This document shows positions 13,965 through 32,874 of a DNA stretch of 64,000 bases, one piece after another. Origin of the DNA: the human T2T-CHM13v2.0 reference genome, Homo sapiens; the NCBI RefSeq assembly GCF_009914755.1, contig NC_060925.1. The stretch is one strand, 5' to 3'. Both the position numbers and the translations under genes were made by a program. Each line of letters starts with the position of its first letter. Position 1 is the first letter of the stretch. Under the pieces are notes generated by a model, which was not told where the DNA came from, did no database searches, and saw only the letters and a program-made list of their open reading frames with translations.

Positions 13965-14141
13965 GAAAACGTTATTTTCCTTATTTGGAAAATGGACATA
14001 ATGAAAATTACGGAAGAAAGTTTGTACAGGGTAACTCTGTAGAAGTTGCCTTCCTTCCTGGCTGTGGTCTTCCAAATGAGCAGACCACAGTTACATGTAT
14101 GGAGAATGGCTGGTCTCCTCCTTGCAGATGCATCCGTGTCA
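13965..14141 (+). pseudogene. Pseudogene exon 3: CFH-SCR7/CFHR3-SCR2-like, dead donor and lost cysteines
   Basis: [59 protein letters not shown]; Cys1>Arg, Cys2>Phe; donor is CTAAGT instead of GTAAGT; 177 nt. Confidence 0.93.
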
Positions 14142-21157: not shown

Positions 21158-21868
21158 TGTGTGTTTATTTTTATAAGAAATAGACAAACTGTTTTCCTGA
21201 GTGATCATATATTCTACCTTCACATACTCAGTGTATGCGAGTTCCAATTGTTCTACAACCTCACCAGCCTTTGAGATAGTGGTTGTTTTTCCATTAAGTT
21301 ATCCATTCTAATATGCGTGTAATGGTATCACATTCCCTAGTGACTAATGCTGCTGAGCATTTTCTTTGTACTTATTTACCATCTATGTACCTCCTTTAGT
21401 GAGGTACCTCCTTTAGTCCAAATTTTTTGCCCATTTTTCATTGGGTTGTTTGATTCTTTACTGAATTTTGAGACAACTTAATATATTGTGGCTACAAGTC
21501 CTTCACTGAGTAAATATTTTAGAAATATTTTTCTTGCATCTCTAGCTTTACTTTTATTTCTCTTAGCAGTCTCTTTCAATGAGCAAATGCATTTAATTTT
21601 GATGTTATCCAGTATATCAAATATTTCATTTATGGATTATGCTCTTTGTACCATCTAAAATTTCCTTGGCCTAAACCAAGGCCATGTACAGTTCTAGAAG
21701 TTAACATTTTACACATAGTTATATGATCGTTTTGAGTTAATTTTTGTATGAGGTATGAGAAATATGTTGAGGGTTTTTATTTTGCATTTGGATGCCTTAC
21801 TATTCCAGTATCCCTTGTTTAAAGGATTGTGTTTTCTTTATTGAATTGCCTTTGCTCCACTATTAAAT

Positions 21869-22797
<929 letters not shown>

Positions 22798-23430
22798 TTA
22801 TCTACAGTCCAGTGCCCCCCATGCCACTGGGGCTGACCCACAGACAAGCCCAGGCAGCTGCTTAGCTATGATGAACTAAGGGCCTTTGCTGGGGCCTTCT
22901 GTGTTGGCAGGGCAGTGCTGACTTTCAGCACATAAACTTGTCTGCAGCAGAGAAACCATTTGTGGTCTCAGAAGAAGTCTCAGGTGAGTTTTCTCAGAGC
23001 AGCTGGCACCCCATTTCCTTCTGTTTTTTTTTTTGTTGTTGTTGTTGTTTGTTTTTGTTTTTTCATCTTAGAGGCCTTGTGACCTATTTTGAGGTCTTGT
23101 TGATCCTCCCTAAGTCATAGGTAGGGCCTTATTTGAGGAGACCTCCCCTCAGATGGAAGGAGACTAGAGGGCATTGCTTGGGAGAAATGCTCTTGGATTT
23201 TGGAATCTGAAACTTTATATTTAAAGGTCTTTTGTTTGTGTTTGTCTTGTTATAGGTATTTATGTTTGTGGAGGTGTTCTCTGAAGAAATTACTAGTGGA
23301 AGAAATTACTAACTCAGGAAACTCTTCTTGTTTGTCTGGTCATTTATATTCACTTAGTCCTGAAGGAGTTGCTAGTGGAATCTCAGCAAGTCTAACTCAG
23401 GGTAACCGTCTGCTCTTCAATCCTTCCCAG

Positions 23431-23680
23431 AGTCCACCCACTGAACTCCTGACTGAAGGTCATCCCTCTCCAACTTGAGTAGATCAAATATGATGAGGGC
23501 TAATGGAACCAAGTTTGAGCCTTGCCAGGTCAATACTTGGGTTCTGAGTACGGTGACTAGTATCTGTGTTTGGTTACATGTATATAATTCCAGCCAGAAT
23601 GGGAAATGTTAATTCAGTTCCTCCCTGCAGCCCAGTGAGGGCTGGTGGCTTTGAGATTATTACTCTTTCTCTGCTGCAAA
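23431..23680 (+). pseudogene. Putative paralog of the FHL-1-specific terminal exon of CFH, within the ERV leader
   Basis: Acceptor TCCTTCCCAG at 23421-23430, then phase-1 AG TCC ACC CAC TGA (KSTH*, versus SFTL* in FHL-1); downstream GAAGGTCATCCCTCTCC..AATGGAACCAAGTTTGAG..CAGCCAGAATGGGAAATG..GCTGGTGGCTTTGAGATTATT matches my recollection of the FHL-1 3' UTR; correct position between SCR7- and SCR8-like exons. Confidence 0.75.
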
Positions 23681-24318
23681 TCCCACTGTCTCAGTGTATT
23701 GTTCTGTTGCTGTGCTGCAGGCATACAAATCTGACAGTCTTGTAACTATTTGTGGCAAGCCAGGTCGAGGTTACTCTCCTTGAGGGCATTTACTCACAGC
23801 CTAGTGCCCCCTTGCCACTGGAGCAGACCCAGAGACAAGCACTAGCAGCTGCTTAGTAGTTCTGATGAACTAATGGCTGTCCTTTAGTTCTCCCCATGTA
23901 ACCCACACTGTAATTTTGATGGGCTGCATCTTCCAAAATTGAAAAGCCTTTGTCTATCATTCCATAAAGCAAAACAAGATTATCTTATTTTTTAACATGG
24001 CTTGACCTCAATACCCATGGGGTTTGGGAGAACAGTGGCCACTGCATGGTTCTCATACATACAGTACCATCCTGTAGCTAGATTTGTTATGTATGAAGGA
24101 AGAGAAATGGGATAAAATCCCTTATGTATAATGTTTTATGTTGCTTTGGTAAAGTAGATCAATGTAGAAAAAACGGAAAAATTATGAATTAGCAAGAAAT
24201 TAAAACCTGTTTGGATTGATTTACAAGAGAAAGAACTTATGGAGGAGCTGCAGCAGCACTACTGGCACCTAAGCCAGAGTCCCCACCACCAAAAAGTCAC
24301 AAACCCAGAGCAACAGGA

Positions 24319-24616
24319 ATTTTTTTTTTTTTTTTGATGGAGTCTTGCTCTGTCGCCCAGGCTGGAGTGCAGTGGCACGATCTTGCTCACTACAACCTCA
24401 ACTGCCTGTGTTCAAGAGATTCTCCTACCTCAGCTTCCTGAGCAGCTGGGACTACAGACACGTGCCACCAAGCCCAGCTCATTTTTGTATTTTTAGTAGA
24501 GATGGGGTTTCACCATACTGGCGAGCCTGGTCTCGAACTCCTGACCTCAGGTGAACCACCCCCGCCTTGGCCTCCCAAAGTGCTGGGATTACAAGCGTGA
24601 GCCACCGTGCCCGGCC
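24319..24616 (-). mobile_element. AluS-like within ERV gag
   Basis: Antisense Alu dimer starting with a T-tract. Confidence 0.92.
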
Positions 24617-25899
24617 TTTATCTCTGCTTCTTCTACCCAACAGGTGACTCCTTTTAGCTAGGGTATCACTTATACCTAACAGGGGACTCAATTTAGCCAG
24701 GATTTCACTCTGGCTCTGAAAGGCAGTTTCCCCTATAACAACTACCTATAGGAGGTGATGCTGCCACAGCCCAGCCTATAGGATTTATGTGGGTTTATTC
24801 TCTGTTCTCCACTACCCACCTATTTAATTAGAAAAATAATATGCCTATTTATTGAGAAGATCTAAAGTTTATGGAAGAAAAAGGATAAAAAAAAAATCCA
24901 AAGCATATGGAGAATCTATTCTCCTCTGTATTTGCCACCCACAATCCTACCTGAGCAGATACCTAAAATTTGCTCAATATTTTGTTGAGTTCAGAGAAGC
25001 AAAGAATGGTTTTAGAAAAAGCTAAGGAAAAGGCTGATCTTATTCACACTGACTCTCCCAGTAATCCAGTAAGGGCAGCAGTAAGGGCAGCTGCTCAGAT
25101 TGCAGTTCCCACCTCTGTCCTGGGATAGAATATAAACACTGGAGATAGATCTAACCTCGAACACTATCAAAACTGCATTTTGGCCAGCCTCTGCAAGGGA
25201 GTGCCCAAGGAAAGCGGCCTCAGTAAGGTCCAGGAGATCAAGCAGAAGCCTAATGAGTGTGCCTTTGGAATTTTTAGAACAAGTCTTTGAAGCTTTCAGA
25301 CAATAAATGGATATTGACTCAGAAGCCTCAGAAAATTTAAAGTTAGCTAATACGATGTTTATCCAACAAAGTACCCCAGCTATGCAGGGAAAGTTACAAA
25401 ATGTAGATGAGGCTTTGGACATGTTTATGTCTCAATTAGTGAAGATTGTTTTTAATGTATTTACTGATCACAATTTTAAATAGTGAAAAATAAAAACACA
25501 AGGAATAATGAAGAGAAAAGCTGACTTGTTAGCTGTGGCTCTGAACCTAGTAGTCCCTGGACCACAACAAGGGCCCTCATCAGATGCTCCATCTAAGGTA
25601 GGACCACCTGGGCCCCCAAAAGCCAAAAAAAAGGGACATCCCATTGCAGGTCCCAAGCAGTGTGCTTACTGCAACAGGGGGGACACTGAAAGGAAAATTG
25701 CCCATGCCTTACAAAGCCTGATGTTAAACACAGTCAGTCTTCTGCCCACCAAATGCCTGGGATAGCTGGGGAGCTTGAGAGAGATACTGAAGAAAAAGAC
25801 CAGAAATGATGGCACCCAGGGGCTTATCCTGACTCAAACAACACCCTCCATATTTCCCACATGGGGCTTGAGATCCTGATGATGGTGAGAAATCAGCTT

Positions 25900-28800
25900 C
25901 TGGACTTTCTAGTAGACATGGTGCCACCTATTTGGTGTTAAATATCTGGTTGTCTAAACTTTCCTCAGAAACTATGAAGGTGACTGAAATCTCAGGAAAA
26001 ATACTGATGAGATCATTCCTCCCAATTTTGGATTCTCAGCTAGAGCAAGGTAATTTAAAGCAGTTTTTCTATACATGTGTGAATGTCCCATCCCTTTGTT
26101 GGGGCAAGTCCTCTTAACCAAACTAAATGCTAAGATTACTTTTTCTCTGAGATGATTGGACATCCAGGTGCCTTCAGACCAAGCATGTGCTCTGCAGGCC
26201 ACATTATTACAACTGGAAGTCCTTGAAAGTGCCCTCATCCCTGAAGAGATACTCCAAAATGTTAGTCCGGGAGCATGGGAAATGGAAGGCCAGGGAAAAC
26301 AAAAACTGCATCTCCAGTACAAGTCAAGTTTTGTGCAGGAGTAGCGCTGCCAAATCTAAAACAGTATCCTTTGAGAGAAAAGGCACAGCAATGCATTTAG
26401 CCTCTGCTAATGGCCTTCCTGCAATACAGGAAGACTTCATCATTCCCCATGTAATGTCCTAAAGACACAGTCCTGGGTCAATTGAAGGGTGGCATGCCTG
26501 CCATACTGTGTGGTATCATGTACGTGTTTGATGATATCTGTCGTGAGATACTTGGGTACCAGAACCTTTTCTTCTGTGTTACATATCTACTCAGGAATAT
26601 TGATTCGTACAGGATTTGAGGGCTACTAGCCAAATTTTCAAAGTCATTTATCTGGTGGTACCCGATGCTTATACATTATTCATGACTTTAACCAGTGAGT
26701 TGTACTGGTGTTCAGTCTTGGATTTGAAAGATGCCTTCATCTGTATTCCTCTGAGTCCAGAGTCCCATGAAGTGTTTGCCTTTGAATACGAAGACACTGA
26801 CACTAAAGCAAACCAACAGTATTGCTGGACAATGCTTCCTCAAGGCTTCAAAAACTCACTAATTGGTTGGGAGGAAATACGTGCTAAGGAGTTTGGGACC
26901 TTCGATTGAAAAATGGGACTTTGTTTATTTATGTTGATGACATATCCATAGCCCCCAAAACTAAGGCAAACTGACCAGAATACTATACTGACTTTACATT
27001 TCTTGTCTGAATTGGGATCCAAGGTATCCAAGAAAAAGGCACAAATCTTGAAACCCTCAGTTACATATCTTGGATTTGAACTTTCTCAGGAGCAGAGCAA
27101 TCTGCTTTCGGACTGCAGAGAAGCTCTTGTCAGGGTGGCCAGACTCAGGACATGGCAGCAGCTGTGAGGGGTTTTTAGGTATGGCTGGATGTTGCCTTAT
27201 TTGATTTTCTTATTTTGGGCTTATAGCAAAATCTCCCTATAAAGCCCTAAGACCAGACAGTTGACTTCTGGAATGGACCAAGGAATGTCAAAAGGCCTTT
27301 CTAACCATTAAATAAAAATTGTTAATGGCTCTGGCTACTGGTACCCCCTGAACTAAGAAAGCCATTTAATTTGTTCATATGTGAGAGAGAAGGGGTGAGT
27401 TTAGGAGTACTAACCCAAGACTTGGGGAATATCATGAGGCCTGTAGCCTACTTTTCAAAACAGCTGGACATTGTCCAAAACTGGGTTGGACTTCTTGCCT
27501 CTGAGCCATTGGTACCACTTGTGATCTTCTCCAGGAGGCAGAAGAGTTCACTTTGGGTTAACCTAGCACAGTACACACCCCACACTATGTATGCTCTTTG
27601 TCAGAGCAGAAGTGGATCTACTGACTTAATTCTAGAAGACTGAATAGATATCAGGCCATCTTCCTGCATAATCCCAGTGTTACTCTGAGAGCTGTTTCTA
27701 CTCTAAATCCTGCTAACTAAATCTATACATGATTGCTTATAAAGTATTGAGCAAGTTTATTCTATTCAACCAGACTTGACCAAAATTCCCTTTAAAAACC
27801 TGGACTTAGAAATATTCACTGAGGAAAGCAGCTTTATGAACCACAGACAACAGAAGGCTGAGTATGCTATGGTAACCCTGTGACAGATCCTAGATGCAGA
27901 GACACTCACTCTGGGTTCATCAGCACAAAAGGCAGAACTTAGAGTCCTAAACAGGGCATCCCAACTATGTAAAGACTCCTGAGTCACCATTTGCTCTTAT
28001 TCCAGGTATACTTTTATTGTTGTCCATGCTTATGGGGCTACTGGAAAGAAAGGGGATTCTTAACCTTTGGTGATTAAAAAAAATGATTAAGCATGCTAAA
28101 GAATCTTAGCCTGACTAAAGACAGTCTTGGTACCCAAGAAAGTAGCTATACTACACCACCCTGGACATCAGTGGATGGACAATTTGGTAGCAAGAAAAAA
28201 AATCACTAGGCAGACCAGGCCACTAAAGGGATGACCAGAGAAAAAATACCCAAAGCCTTGCTAATGCCATTAATCCCTGAAATAAACTTCAGCCTAAAAT
28301 CTATATCTATTTGGAAGAAGATCTAAAAGCACTTGATTGAGGCTTTGACTCCAATCAAAGAACCCAAAATGAGTAGATATGTAACACAGAAGAAAAGGTT
28401 CTTGTACCCAAGTATCTTACCACAGATATCATCAAACACATACATGATACCACGTAGTATGACAGGCATGCCACCCTTCAATTGATCCAGGACTACGTCT
28501 TTGGGACACACTTAAAGAAGGCTATCCAACAAATAATTCTAAAATACCTACTTTGTGCCCAGAACAATCTTAAGACTGGTCCTCCACCCCCAGTTCCAGG
28601 GATTCAAGCAAGAGGTGCAGGACAAATAGAGGACTGGCAAATTGATTTTAACGTGATGCCAAGGGTAGCAGGAAATTTTAAATACTTGCTGATATTTGTA
28701 GATACATTTTCAAGATAAATGAAAGCATTCCCCTGCAAGACCAAGAGAATGTATGAGGTTATAAAAGACTTGTTAGAGAAGATTACCCTCAGGTTTAGAT

Positions 28801-29410
28801 GGCCTGTCTTCATCCAGTGTGACTATAGTGCAACTTTTGTAGCCTAGGACACCATATATTCCAGGCCCTCAGCATAATCTGGAATCTTCATACAGCCTGG
28901 AGACTGAAGTCTACTGAGAAAACTGAAAAGTTAAATCATACTATAAAAAACAAAACAAACTTTTGCTAAGATTTGCCAAGAAACTAACAACCTGGAATAA
29001 AATTCTGTCCTTCTCCCTGCTCAGAGTAAGGGTGGTCCCTAAAAGTGGGCTTAAATAAGCCCTTTATAAATTTTATATGGGAGATTATTCTGTTCTCTTC
29101 TCAGACTAAGGAATGCCAATAATATACACATAAAGAAATTAGATATTATCAAATATATACAATCTTTAGGTCACACTTTAATTACTATTCATGAGTTTGT
29201 GGTTCCAGCAGATTGTGGTATCCAACTGACATTCTCTTGCGTCGCATCCAACCAAGAGACTGGATTCTGCTCAAGACCAGGAAAAGTCAACATCCTGAGG
29301 ACCACTTGAAAACACAGTGAAAGAGGCCATACAATGCATGACTGGTGACTCATTCCTCTGTTCGGGTGAAGGACTTAGACCCTGGATTCACCACAGCCAT
29401 ATAAAACCCA
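25900..29410 (+). pseudogene. ERV pro-pol remnant (protease, RT, RNase H, integrase) with stops and frameshifts
   Basis: ORF fragments 26616..26909 (VLDLKDAF, WTMLPQGFKNS), 27371..27643 (GVLTQ..RPVAYFSKQLD), 28482..28718 (WQIDF..KYLLIFVDTFS). Confidence 0.9.
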
Positions 29411-29849
29411 CCCCGCCAGACTCTAGTGCTATCAAGAAATGTAGAAAGGCCAACCCTATCTGAATGGATAAGTACATCTTTGATGGGCCTCAAATATCTT
29501 TTGAAGAAAAATATCATATAAATAACAAACTTAAAGAAAATTAGACAAAACACATGTCCTCTTGACAACTACAATAGTTACTTTGAGCATAATAGGAATT
29601 TTTGTTATAATTATTTTACATAAAAAGGTGAGATACCTTCCTGTCTATTCCGTGCCTTACTGAATGCTTAACCCATAGATTTACCTGGTCATTATAATTG
29701 CCTTGGTCATTACAATTGCTACACTTATAGATTTTACTTCACAATTGCCTTGGTCATTACAATTGCTAGACTTACAGATTTTCCAGACATCCTATACCAT
29801 GCTGACTTAGTCTCCTGCCTCCCATTATTTGGACATTCTAAAATTTAGA

Positions 29850-31110
29850 AATGGTCACTCTTGTTTTAAAACTTCTAATAAATTTCCTTTTACTGCAATG
29901 CCTAGACAGGGATAACAACACTGTAGTTAAACTGCTTCAAGGTATTGCCACTGGAAGAAACCTACCAGAATGATGGATCTGTCAGTAACTCCCTCAAACG
30001 ATTCAAAATAAGCATTTTCTGTTAGTCATACTTGTAACTGACTTTCTGTCCCAAATACGACTACCTATCTGCAACAGCTTCTTTCCATGGCTAATTTCCA
30101 GGTCCAACTGGTAGTACACCAAGAAATCACCACCCCACATCTCAATCTCTCTCTATATATCATAAATGGAAAGTCATTCCATAACATAGGCCCTCCATGG
30201 CCCATGGCATAATGGGTAGACAAATGCAGCCAGGAGAAGGGAAATAAAATTAAAAGTTTCTCTTTGCTGTGCCAAAAATATTTACAGTGGGGAATATCAC
30301 ACAAATTTTGGGGAGCCTGTAGAAAAAGATCCACAGTTCAATTCCATTTGTCTATATTCCCCATGAAAAAAAACCATCAATACATGCATCTTTGAGGGCT
30401 TCACTTGTGTGTCCCCTTGGCAAATGTTTATTTGTGACACAGGATCAGAACCTCCTCTGTTAGGACAAGCTCACTGGTGTCTCAATAACCTGTATATTGA
30501 GGGCTCTTACTTATTGGGACACTGGTCAGTCCATCCTAATGACTAAAGATTCTGCCCATTTTCCCACGGACTCCAAAAGCCACTGCCAGGCATATATCAA
30601 TATATCCGGTGACAGGGCCTTCTTGGGCATCACAATTCCTAGCTATGAAGTATACACTAACTGGGTCATGATCAGAAACTTACCGGCAACTTTAGAAATA
30701 ATTGCAAAAGAGGCTGCTAAGAACATTAAGGCTGAGAAAACTCTTTAAATTTACTTACCCAGATAGTTCTTAACAATGGAGCTGCACTTGATTTTCTCTT
30801 GGCTTTACCGAGGGGAGTCTGTACAGTGATCAATACCACCTGTTATACTTATATCAATGCTTCTGGTAAAATAAAAACCAAGCTAAAGAAAATATTTCAG
30901 CAGTCTCGCTGGAGACCATATGTCTACACCACAGACCCTAAGTCTGACTAGCTTTTTGAGCTTTTCCCCTCGATACTCCACGTTTTCCAGTCCATTTTCC
31001 AAGGGCTCTTAAAGTTCAAGCTCACAATTCTGTTTATAGGGCTTACAGTTTACATCATAGGCTGCTATTCAATTAAATATTACAATAAAACCATAGACTG
31101 AAGTACTAAC
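29850..31110 (+). pseudogene. ERV env remnant
   Basis: 30745-30870 reads LNLLTQIVLNNGAALDFLLALPRGVCTVINTTCYTYINASG: degenerate immunosuppressive domain and CX6C(C) motif. 5' boundary approximate. Confidence 0.82.
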
Positions 31111-31303
31111 ATGTTCATGCAGCACCTTCAGCTGGGTGTAACGACTTGCAGGTTGTTACAATACGGTTTCATTCCTCTAATCCCGACTCATTCTCTGACT
31201 GTGCCCCTTGTCAGCAAAAAGAAGCTAGAGTCGTCATTGCCTGTTTCCCACCATATTAGCTGTTACACCTCAAGATTAAGAAGGGATCAAGCCTGGGAGG
31301 AAC

Positions 31304-31816
31304 TGAAACTGTCCCTAAGAAAATTACATAAAATTGATTAAGGGGGGAAAATTCATCTACGCTTTCAGGACAAGCAGCAGTAATCATTAGGCCAGCTTTC
31401 CCTTTGTCCTACGTCTTTGTAGCTGGTCATGGATTACTACCACCCTAGGATAATGTAGCCCTTGTCACAAGACCTTTTGGTCCTTTTCTTTTCTACAGAT
31501 AAAATCTAAGACATTGTGAGACTATAATCTTTCTGCATGAGTTTCTCCTTTAGGTTCGGCATACCAAAAAACCTATCAACATACTCGTCAACAAGGCAAA
31601 ACCACATTTTCACAAAAAATTAAAGAAATTAGGCCAGGCATCATGGCACAGGTCTGTAGTACCAGCTGCTCAGGAGATCTGAGGTGGGAGGACCACTTGA
31701 GCCTGGGAGGCAGAAGTTGCAGTGAGCTGAGGTCACGCTACTGCAGTGAGGTCACGCTACTGAAATCCAGTTGGGCAACAGAGCAAGACCATGTCTCAAA
31801 AACAAAAAACAAATAT

Positions 31817-31852
<36 letters not shown>

Positions 31853-32169
31853 CAGCTGGTCTAAAGAGCCCAGCAAAAAGCTGACTCAGGAAATAATGCA
31901 GGTTCCACATCCCACATCCCGGTGACTTCATCCCCCTTACCCTGACCAATTGACAACCCAAATTTTCTAGCCCCTCACCCTCCATGATCCCCTTAAAGTC
32001 CCTTGCCCAGAACCCCTTCACAGAACAGATTTGGGGCTTGAGAATCCTCCCATTTCCTTGTTTGGTGCCCTTGCATTGATTAAAGTTTTTCTTTGCTGCA
32101 AACTCTACTGTCTCAGTGTATTGGTCTATTGCTAGACAGTGGGCATGTGAACCTGATAGTGTTATAACA
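31304..32169 (+). mobile_element. 3' LTR of the provirus, interrupted by an Alu monomer and (CA)n
   Basis: Purine tract GGGAGGAA before TGAAAC; ATTAAA at 32079-32084; ends TATAACA; Alu-derived insert and CA repeat at about 31585-31851. Confidence 0.82.
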
Positions 32170-32520
32170 AAATAGAATAGAAGCTATTTACAAAATCGAT
32201 CCATGCATGTGAGTCTATTTCTGGACACCATTTTCTCTTCTATTCTTCTGTGTGTTTATCCTTTCACCAGTGTCAGGAGATCCTTTTACTCACTGTAGCT
32301 TTTTCTAAGTCTTAAAATTTGGTAATGTGAGCTTTTCAACTTCTCTTATCTTTTGAAGAATTGTGTAGCTATTTTAGTCCCTTTGCCTTTCTGTATGACT
32401 TTAGAATCAGCATGTCCATATGTGTAAAACATTGTGCTTGGTTATTCACTAGAAATGGGACACACTCATAGATGAATCTGGGGAGAACTGACATGTAACA
32501 GTATTAAATTGTTCAGTCCA

Positions 32521-32874
<354 letters not shown>

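What the first reader, a model, noticed from the sequence alone, without database searches (positions are those of the whole stretch)
23655..23880. Third, internal copy of LTR R/U5-PBS-leader inserted just after the gag start, with its poly(A) hexamer lost
Seen: CTCTTTCTCTGCTGCAAA..CACTGTCTCAGTGTATTG..CTGACAGTCTTGTAAC..TGGCAAGCC..GACAAGC..GCAGCTGCTTAG..GATGAACTAA repeats the end of the 5' LTR and leader (22355-22460 plus 22770-22885) and the 3' LTR end (32079-32169). Gag-like sequence (MGNVNSVPP.. then ..MGCIFQN) flanks it. The 3' LTR has ATTAAA (32079-32084); this copy reads ATTACT. Inference: the duplication put a poly(A) signal about 230 nt after the cryptic acceptor, creating a terminal exon; it is retained in CFH (ATTAAA as I recall) and disabled here.
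Basis: partly seen in the sequence, partly recalled or inferred. Interest (0 to 1): 0.72.

Follow-up and report, generated by a model that had tools for sequence, protein, structure and literature searches.

The report
Retroviral poly(A) site behind FHL-1
The short complement regulator FHL-1, central to macular degeneration research, ends in an exon made from an old retrovirus inside the CFH gene, and its RNA is cut at a duplicated piece of the virus's end repeat that likely made this exon possible; this window holds a likely dead sister copy that has lost that signal.

Summary
Confirmed and extended. A decayed ERV1 provirus (21869-32169) carries a second R/U5-PBS-leader-gag-start unit at 23645-23926. 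It reads best as a tandem duplication of about 1 kb that lost about 700 nt. Among 40 scored genome matches only this copy and its paralog in CFH span it; 28 of 28 family loci lack it. The CFH paralog holds FHL-1 exon 10: exon 9 plus this acceptor translates ...CIRV-SFTL-stop, with ATTAAA at +225 inside the duplicate. Published long reads give a 246-247-nt exon, ending 15-16 nt after that hexamer. 3'-end reads number 6003 there against 40 at the 5' LTR site. The window copy lacks two hexamer bases and its upstream donor reads CT, so neutral decay explains the loss. The acceptor is family-wide; the duplication likely supplied the missing poly(A) site. New lead: all 5 differences in the exon's 11 coding bases lie on the CFH side. 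The ERV overlap is already one row in a 2023 supplementary table; my 10 searches found no text on it, on the duplication, or on the cluster. New variant of known TE exonization.

The parts
21869..32169 (+). Decayed ERV1 (gamma-type) provirus, TG...CA ends, AAAT target-site repeat on both sides (21865-21868, 32170-32173); paralog of the provirus in CFH intron 9
   Evidence: CFH copy about 9-10% different; Pfam on 5 open-frame fragments: RVT_1 above cutoff (E 7.9e-9), env and integrase weak and below cutoff, 2 with no match
21869..22448 (+). 5' LTR; poly(A) hexamer position 22358-22363 degenerate (AGTAAG; GGTAAA in CFH)
   Evidence: the CFH-equivalent site has 40 3'-end reads
22344..23644 (+). 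Unit 1 of the tandem duplication: late R/U5, PBS-like stretch, full leader, gag start (about 983 nt without the Alu)
22458..22775 (+). Alu inserted at the PBS of unit 1, with about 15-nt flanking repeat; in both paralogs, absent from unit 2
   Evidence: NCBI mask in the hub note
22981..22989 (+). CAG|GTGAGT, likely the provirus's major splice donor; absent from unit 2
   Evidence: GT at the aligned place in 3 of 5 family loci with a full leader; function inferred
23392..23430 (+). Branch-point-like CTAAC, pyrimidine tract and acceptor AG (23429-23430); the CFH equivalent is the FHL-1 exon 10 acceptor
23431..23678 (+). Paralog of FHL-1 exon 10; first 11 coding-equivalent bases differ from CFH at 5 places, then an in-frame TGA (23442-23444)
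23599..23644 (+). gag-start-like stretch (MGNVNSVPP...); family loci continue straight into GGGCTGCATC-like sequence
   Evidence: gag identity inferred from position
23645..23747 (+). Unit 2, duplicated late R/U5: hexamer remnant ATTACT 23659-23664, cleavage-equivalent near 23677-23678, GU-rich stretch behind it
23753..23882 (+). Unit 2, PBS-like stretch and first about 115 nt of leader
23883..23926 (+). Unit 2, second gag-start-like stretch after a gap of about 700 nt relative to unit 1
31304..32169 (+). 3' LTR with an Alu insert; ATTAAA at 32079-32084
13965..14139 (+). Paralog of CFH exon 9 (CCP7); its donor reads CT at 14138-14139 where CFH has GT

Best explanation
This is the likely dead paralog of the FHL-1 terminal exon: a provirus in CFH intron 9 carries a second copy of its own LTR end and leader, and in CFH that copy is where FHL-1 RNA is cleaved and polyadenylated, so the duplication likely turned an old retroviral splice acceptor into a terminal exon. 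Steps. (1) Shown: the provirus sits sense-wise in CFH intron 9 and in this paralog. (2) Shown: a locus-specific second R/U5-PBS-leader-gag-start unit follows the first. (3) Inferred (about 60%): it arose at DNA level from this element's 5' end after integration and before the Alu insertion, and lost about 700 nt that include the second donor and acceptor. (4) Shown for CFH: exon 9 joined to the acceptor gives SFTL-stop, and transcripts end 15-16 nt after the duplicate's ATTAAA. (5) Inferred: without the duplicate the nearest ATTAAA would be about 500 nt past the junction and barely used, so exon definition would be poor. (6) Shown: after the segmental duplication the window copy lost its exon-9 donor and two hexamer bases; neutral decay is inferred.
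For: Only 2 of 40 scored matches span the junction; 37 stop at query 352 or earlier and 1 is the element's own 5' LTR. 28 of 28 family loci have no insert. Translation ...PRCIRVSFTL* and ATTAAA at +225. Long-read CFH exon chr1:196701318-196701564 (hg38), with the HUERS-P1-int annotation ending 207 nt into the exon, within about 4 nt of my junction (PMC10515820 supplement). QuantSeq-REV: 6003 reads at 196701565; 40 at -1272, which lands on the 5' LTR's equivalent cleavage point; 33 at +520; 879 at the full-length end; no listed site at the 3' LTR equivalent, +8747 (PMC10094766 Table S2, 22 CFH rows). 15 of 25 family LTR ends carry ATTAAA/AATAAA at this place. Duplicate versus unit 1 differs at 37/214 (window) and 39/209 (CFH) sites, the two LTRs at 160/569 and 151/564 (sums). 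One column state is shared by all six copies and 0 of 25 family LTRs; another by the window 5' LTR and both internal copies and 0 of 25. Rodents lack FHL-1 (PMC12165806 passage).
Against: The tree on 107 columns joins the internal copies to the 5' LTRs with only 53% ultrafast bootstrap; the 92% node is the pair of 5' LTRs alone. The internal copy also evolves slowly (0.21-0.22 from family LTRs versus 0.26-0.29), which inflates its closeness, and the family LTRs were picked by similarity to it. Necessity of the hexamer is untested; a second ATTAAA lies at +763. The hg38-to-CHM13 mapping rests on internal offsets, not a liftover. The internal R/U5 differs between paralogs at only 3 of 101 sites (lowest 4% of windows), mildly odd for a decaying copy. 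No other primate genome was available.
Confidence: 0.82

Rival explanations
1. The duplication arose during reverse transcription (template switch between co-packaged RNAs at 2-3 nt of microhomology) and was already in the virus when it integrated. The consequence for FHL-1 is the same; only the timing differs.
For: Short TG/TGG overlap at the first junction; weak tree support for the 5' grouping (53%); the LTR U5 states shared by all six copies.
Against: The duplicate is closer to the 5' LTR (0.15-0.20) than to the 3' LTR (0.24-0.27), and closer to unit 1 than the LTRs are to each other. No other genome copy carries the structure. The copy starts just before the hexamer, likely not at the R start (R start not mapped).
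Confidence: 0.3
2. The duplicate is used but was not needed: the family-wide acceptor would have made a terminal exon anyway with a downstream signal, and what created FHL-1 was the later CFH-side change at the exon start.
For: Acceptor AG in 17 of 24 family loci and the stop already present in the paralog; a minor site at +520 has 33 reads; 5 CFH-side changes at the exon start.
Against: The duplicate site outnumbers the +520 site about 180-fold (6003 versus 33); the +763 ATTAAA has no LTR-type GU-rich stretch that I examined.
Confidence: 0.15
3. The hexamer loss in this paralog was selected, to stop a CFHR-like gene from being truncated at the ERV exon.
For: The deletion hits exactly the hexamer in an otherwise well-kept segment (3 of 101 differences).
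Against: The locus is an annotated pseudogene; its exon-9-type donor is also dead; 10 of 25 unrelated family LTR ends have also lost the canonical hexamer.
Confidence: 0.08

Closest known systems
CFH row in Pasquesi et al. 2023 (PMC10515820) supplementary file 1: Isoform_161452_28, HUERS-P1-int, LTR/ERV1
   Same: Same exon and same element (CFH paralog); shows that the ERV overlap of the FHL-1 exon is already catalogued.
   Different: One table row among 3503 events; the main text has no 'CFH'. It names only the internal segment, not the duplicated LTR end, the poly(A) source, the paralog or the exon-start changes.
TE-derived truncated immune isoforms: sPD-L1 (L2a), IFNAR2-S (AluJr), IL13RA1-LOR1a, IL18R1-Short (review PMC13709765, passages)
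   Same: An intronic TE gives a terminal exon or poly(A) signal and a C-terminally truncated immune protein.
   Different: Here acceptor and poly(A) signal come from two parts of one provirus joined by an internal duplication; the product is a long-known secreted regulator. That review has no 'factor H' or 'FHL'.
PSG9 / MER65-int (PMC12969887, abstract only)
   Same: ERV1 internal sequence supplies poly(A) signals that truncate a host protein in a duplicated primate gene array.
   Different: There the signals are reported in the internal region itself; here the signal is LTR R/U5 sequence copied into the internal region.
[quoted passage not shown]
   Same: Unit 1 has a strong donor behind its R/U5; unit 2 has lost it.
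   Different: Untested here; the 5' LTR hexamer is itself degenerate, which suffices to explain low use, and MoMLV control is donor-independent per the same passages.

Membership tests
ERV1 (class I) provirus | Two LTRs with TG...CA ends and a 4-bp target-site repeat | tested here: met
   AAAT on both sides in both paralogs; LTRs align end to end at 70-76%
ERV1 (class I) provirus | gag-pol-env remnants in order | tested here: met
   RVT_1 above cutoff at 26604-26909; integrase and env matches below cutoff further on; Cys-His-like stretch upstream had no Pfam match
HUERS-P1 / LTR8 | Internal sequence best matches the HUERS-P1-int consensus | not testable with these tools
   No Dfam library. The name comes from the RepeatMasker label in the PMC10515820 table for the CFH copy
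HUERS-P1 / LTR8 | LTRs are LTR8 (PMC6862598 passages) | not testable with these tools
   LTR family name not determined; nearest genome copies are only 69-79% alike
HUERS-P1 / LTR8 | tRNA type of the PBS | not tested
   Resemblance to an Arg-tRNA PBS is recalled, from no call
TE-derived terminal exon | Splice acceptor inside the TE, used in host mRNA | tested here: met
   CFH copy: frame gives SFTL-stop, matching the published tail; long-read exon length matches
TE-derived terminal exon | Cleavage site and hexamer inside the TE | tested here: met
   CFH copy:
TE-derived terminal exon | Same features functional in the window's own copy | tested here: not met
   Hexamer 2 nt short, upstream donor CT, no canonical hexamer until +768; expression not tested
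TE-derived terminal exon | TE deletion abolishes the isoform | not testable with these tools
   Needs editing in cells

The most novel reading that the evidence does not exclude
FHL-1 is a domesticated provirus rearrangement built in three dated steps: insertion, an internal tandem duplication that coupled the family-wide acceptor to an LTR poly(A) site freed of the viral splice donor, and then, after the CFH/CFHR segmental duplication, a selected burst of five substitutions in eleven coding bases that sharpened the acceptor and wrote the SFTL tail. The FH/FHL-1 ratio in eye and liver would then be set by retroviral RNA-processing elements.
Probability: 0.35. Interest if true: 0.85.

Novelty: new variant of a known kind. 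Interest (0 to 1): 0.68.

Why it matters
[quoted passage not shown] This work names the cis-elements (retroviral branch point and acceptor, duplicated LTR hexamer, cleavage point, GU-rich stretch), explains why rodents lack the isoform, and supplies a natural paralog control. That makes the isoform switch directly testable and points to an exon-10 region where variants could shift the FH/FHL-1 ratio.

Tried and rejected
Different-subfamily recombinant for the two LTRs: both hit the same family copies at 68-79% and share one target-site repeat; set aside. Family-wide duplication: rejected. Spliced-RNA origin of the 700-nt gap: the gap starts about 100 nt before the donor at 22984, so not donor-to-acceptor. 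3' LTR or 5' LTR as the FHL-1 end: rejected. Strong conservation of the internal R/U5: 3 of 101, lowest 4% of windows, treated as weak. Tree support for an internal+5' LTR clade: only 53% (L044-L048 dropped as near-identical to L043, L030 as distant, leaving 25 of 31 family LTR ends). Direct local alignment of the two gag-start stretches gave low scores (19 and 16) and a global alignment failed, so that part rests on the family comparison. Cantsilieris et al. 2018 could not be read, so its duplication dates and any mention of this ERV were not seen. Borzoi paper hit was CFHR2, irrelevant. Absolute dates are rough only: paralogs K about 0.10, duplicate about 0.17-0.24 (leader part), LTR pair 0.29-0.40.

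Full report
1. Observation. The window holds a decayed provirus at 21869-32169 with TG...CA ends and AAAT on both sides. A repeat search finds 23664-23759 at 86% to the 5' LTR end and 68% to the 3' LTR end, and leader blocks at 77-86% to 22778-22883. The hexamer reads ATTAAA in the 3' LTR, AGTAAG in the 5' LTR and ATTACT in the internal copy. Pfam on 5 open-frame fragments gave reverse transcriptase above cutoff, weak integrase and env matches below cutoff, and 2 blanks.

2. Anatomy. A genome search with 23300-23950 scored 40 of 313 candidates. Two span the whole query: the window and C1:196047590-196048233, inside CFH (89%). One is the element's own 5' LTR. The other 37 stop at query position 352 or earlier. 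All 28 family loci fetched run from the gag-start stretch straight into the sequence that resumes here at about 23921; 4 of them have weak downstream scores. A search with the insert alone scored 40 of 213 candidates and again only these two cover it. Searches score only the best candidates, so this is a lower bound on copies. Family leaders continue the match to about 23882, and 23879-23918 resembles the family gag start (26 of 28 loci above their shuffled mean). So the structure is a tandem repeat: unit 1 (22344-23644, about 983 nt without its Alu) and unit 2 (23645-23926, 282 nt), which lacks about 700 nt of leader, including the strong donor at 22984 and the acceptor at 23430.

3. The CFH copy is FHL-1 exon 10. 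CFH exon 9 ends ...GTC A|GT; the window's equivalent donor reads CT. Exon 9 plus the acceptor in the provirus translates ...PRCIRVSFTL-stop, and ATTAAA lies at +225, the next canonical hexamer at +763. Reviews state that SFTL is encoded by exon 10 and that mice have no such variant (PMC7593401 passages; PMC10099856 passages; PMC12165806 passage). The window copy is 2 nt shorter at the hexamer and has no canonical hexamer until +768.

4. Where FHL-1 RNA ends. The supplement of PMC10515820 (file 1, two rows found, one part read) lists a macrophage long-read CFH exon at hg38 chr1:196701318-196701564 over HUERS-P1-int 196700967-196701525. Counting 246-247 nt from my acceptor ends 15-16 nt after ATTAAA, and the annotation's end at 207 nt falls within about 4 nt of my junction. 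Table S2 of PMC10094766 (all 22 CFH rows, 12 cartilage samples) has 6003 reads at 196701565, 879 at the full-length end, 40 at -1272, 33 at +520 and 50 at +1587. The -1272 site lands on the 5' LTR's equivalent cleavage point (hexamer offset -1270), which checks the mapping; no row lies near the 3' LTR equivalent at +8747. The proximal site exceeds the distal one in 12 of 12 samples. This also fits the 1.8-kb mRNA (PMC13273927 passage), given a short 5' UTR (recalled).

5. Order of events. Paralogs differ at about 9-10% (K about 0.10); the duplicate differs from unit 1 at 37/214 and 39/209 sites; the LTR pairs at 160/569 and 151/564. The Alu at 22458-22775 is in both paralogs' unit 1 and not in unit 2. 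One U5 state is shared by all six copies and none of 25 family LTR ends, so the duplicate comes from this element; one more is shared by the window 5' LTR and both internal copies only (deleted in the CFH 5' LTR). Against: the tree supports internal+5' LTR at only 53%, the internal copy evolves slowly, and the family set was chosen by similarity to it. I put post-integration origin at about 60%. Likely order: insertion, duplication, Alu, segmental duplication, then divergence. With a recalled rate of 2.2e-9 per site per year these would be very roughly 65-90, 40-50 and 25 million years; treat as order only.

6. Mechanism. The branch-point-like CTAAC, pyrimidine tract and AG are family features (AG in 17 of 24 aligned loci; 4 of 28 did not align), and 15 of 25 family LTR ends keep the canonical hexamer. 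In an ordinary copy the acceptor has no LTR poly(A) site nearby: one lies upstream, the other about 9 kb downstream. The duplication put one 225 nt behind the acceptor, a size suited to terminal-exon definition (inference). Unit 2 also lacks the strong donor that follows unit 1; donor-like sites behind it start at +432 and look weaker. By analogy with HIV-1 (PMC3694450 passages) this could release the site from U1 suppression; untested, and the degenerate 5' hexamer is a sufficient explanation.

7. A further lead. Of 38 columns in 23331-23645 where the paralogs differ, 17 set CFH apart from the family, 20 set the window apart, 1 is tied. Five of the 17 lie in the 11 coding bases of exon 10, and none of the 20 does (binomial 6e-5 at half the pairwise rate). 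The window and most family copies read AG again right after the acceptor; CFH reads GC, which removes a competing AG and gives G at +1 (effect inferred). The window copy would read K-S-T-H-stop in that frame. Cautions: I saw the cluster before testing it; two dinucleotide changes could make it three events; and 12 clusters of 5 or more in 11 occur in 9231 aligned columns (0.45% of windows), not polarised.

8. Loss in the window. The locus is an annotated pseudogene with a dead upstream donor, and 10 of 25 family LTR ends have also lost the hexamer, so neutral decay is enough.

9. What is known. The ERV overlap is a row in a 2023 supplement; that paper's main text has no 'CFH' (methods passages). 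The 2026 review of TE-derived immune isoforms has no 'factor H' or 'FHL'; the FHL-1 review has no 'retro', 'transpos' or 'polyadenyl'. Searches: FHL-1+CFH+endogenous retrovirus+exon 10, 0 papers; CFH+exonization+transposable+isoform, 0; searches listed nothing on the duplication (titles and abstract starts of the listed rows only). The library lacks most subscription papers, Cantsilieris 2018 could not be read, and other TE or poly(A) supplements may list this site. Closest kinds: sPD-L1, IFNAR2-S, IL13RA1-LOR1a and PSG9/MER65-int (abstract). It works like these; the twist is a poly(A) site moved by a rearrangement inside the provirus.

10. Verdict. Observation confirmed; interpretation supported with refinements. 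New variant of a known kind; interest 0.68; best explanation 0.82.

Noticed in passing
window 22984-22987: The predicted 4-nt RefSeq exon of LOC100996886 sits exactly on the provirus's CAG|GTGAGT donor-like site; likely a gene-model artefact.
   Followed up: partly
window 14138-14139: The exon-9-type donor of the pseudogene reads CT where CFH has GT.
   Followed up: yes
window as a whole (hub gene table): CFH is followed directly by LOC100996886 and CFHR4, with no CFHR3 or CFHR1, whereas the usual order includes them: this assembly appears to carry the common CFHR3-CFHR1 deletion, so other haplotypes may hold further copies.
   Followed up: no
L063 6403-6579 (CFH exon 9): The translation shows Tyr at the place recalled as residue 402 (non-risk allele).
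   Followed up: no
window 23290-23400: Short imperfect repeats in the leader (CTAGTGGAA...CTAACTCAG type) place two branch-point-like CTAAC motifs upstream of the acceptor; blast self-hits suggest the repeat is in family copies too.
   Followed up: no
window 31580-31850: An Alu with a CA microsatellite tail, preceded by about 45 nt of non-LTR sequence, interrupts the 3' LTR in both paralogs.
   Followed up: no
window 29696-29782: Two 40-nt copies at 95% identity, 47 nt apart, inside the provirus.
   Followed up: no
window 24320-24620 and 32525-32834: Alus present in the window but apparently absent from the CFH copy (breaks in the alignment), so inserted after the segmental duplication; useful as date markers.
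   Followed up: no
PMC10094766 Table S2: In cartilage the FHL-1 end outnumbers the full-length FH end in 12 of 12 samples (6003 versus 879 reads).
   Followed up: no
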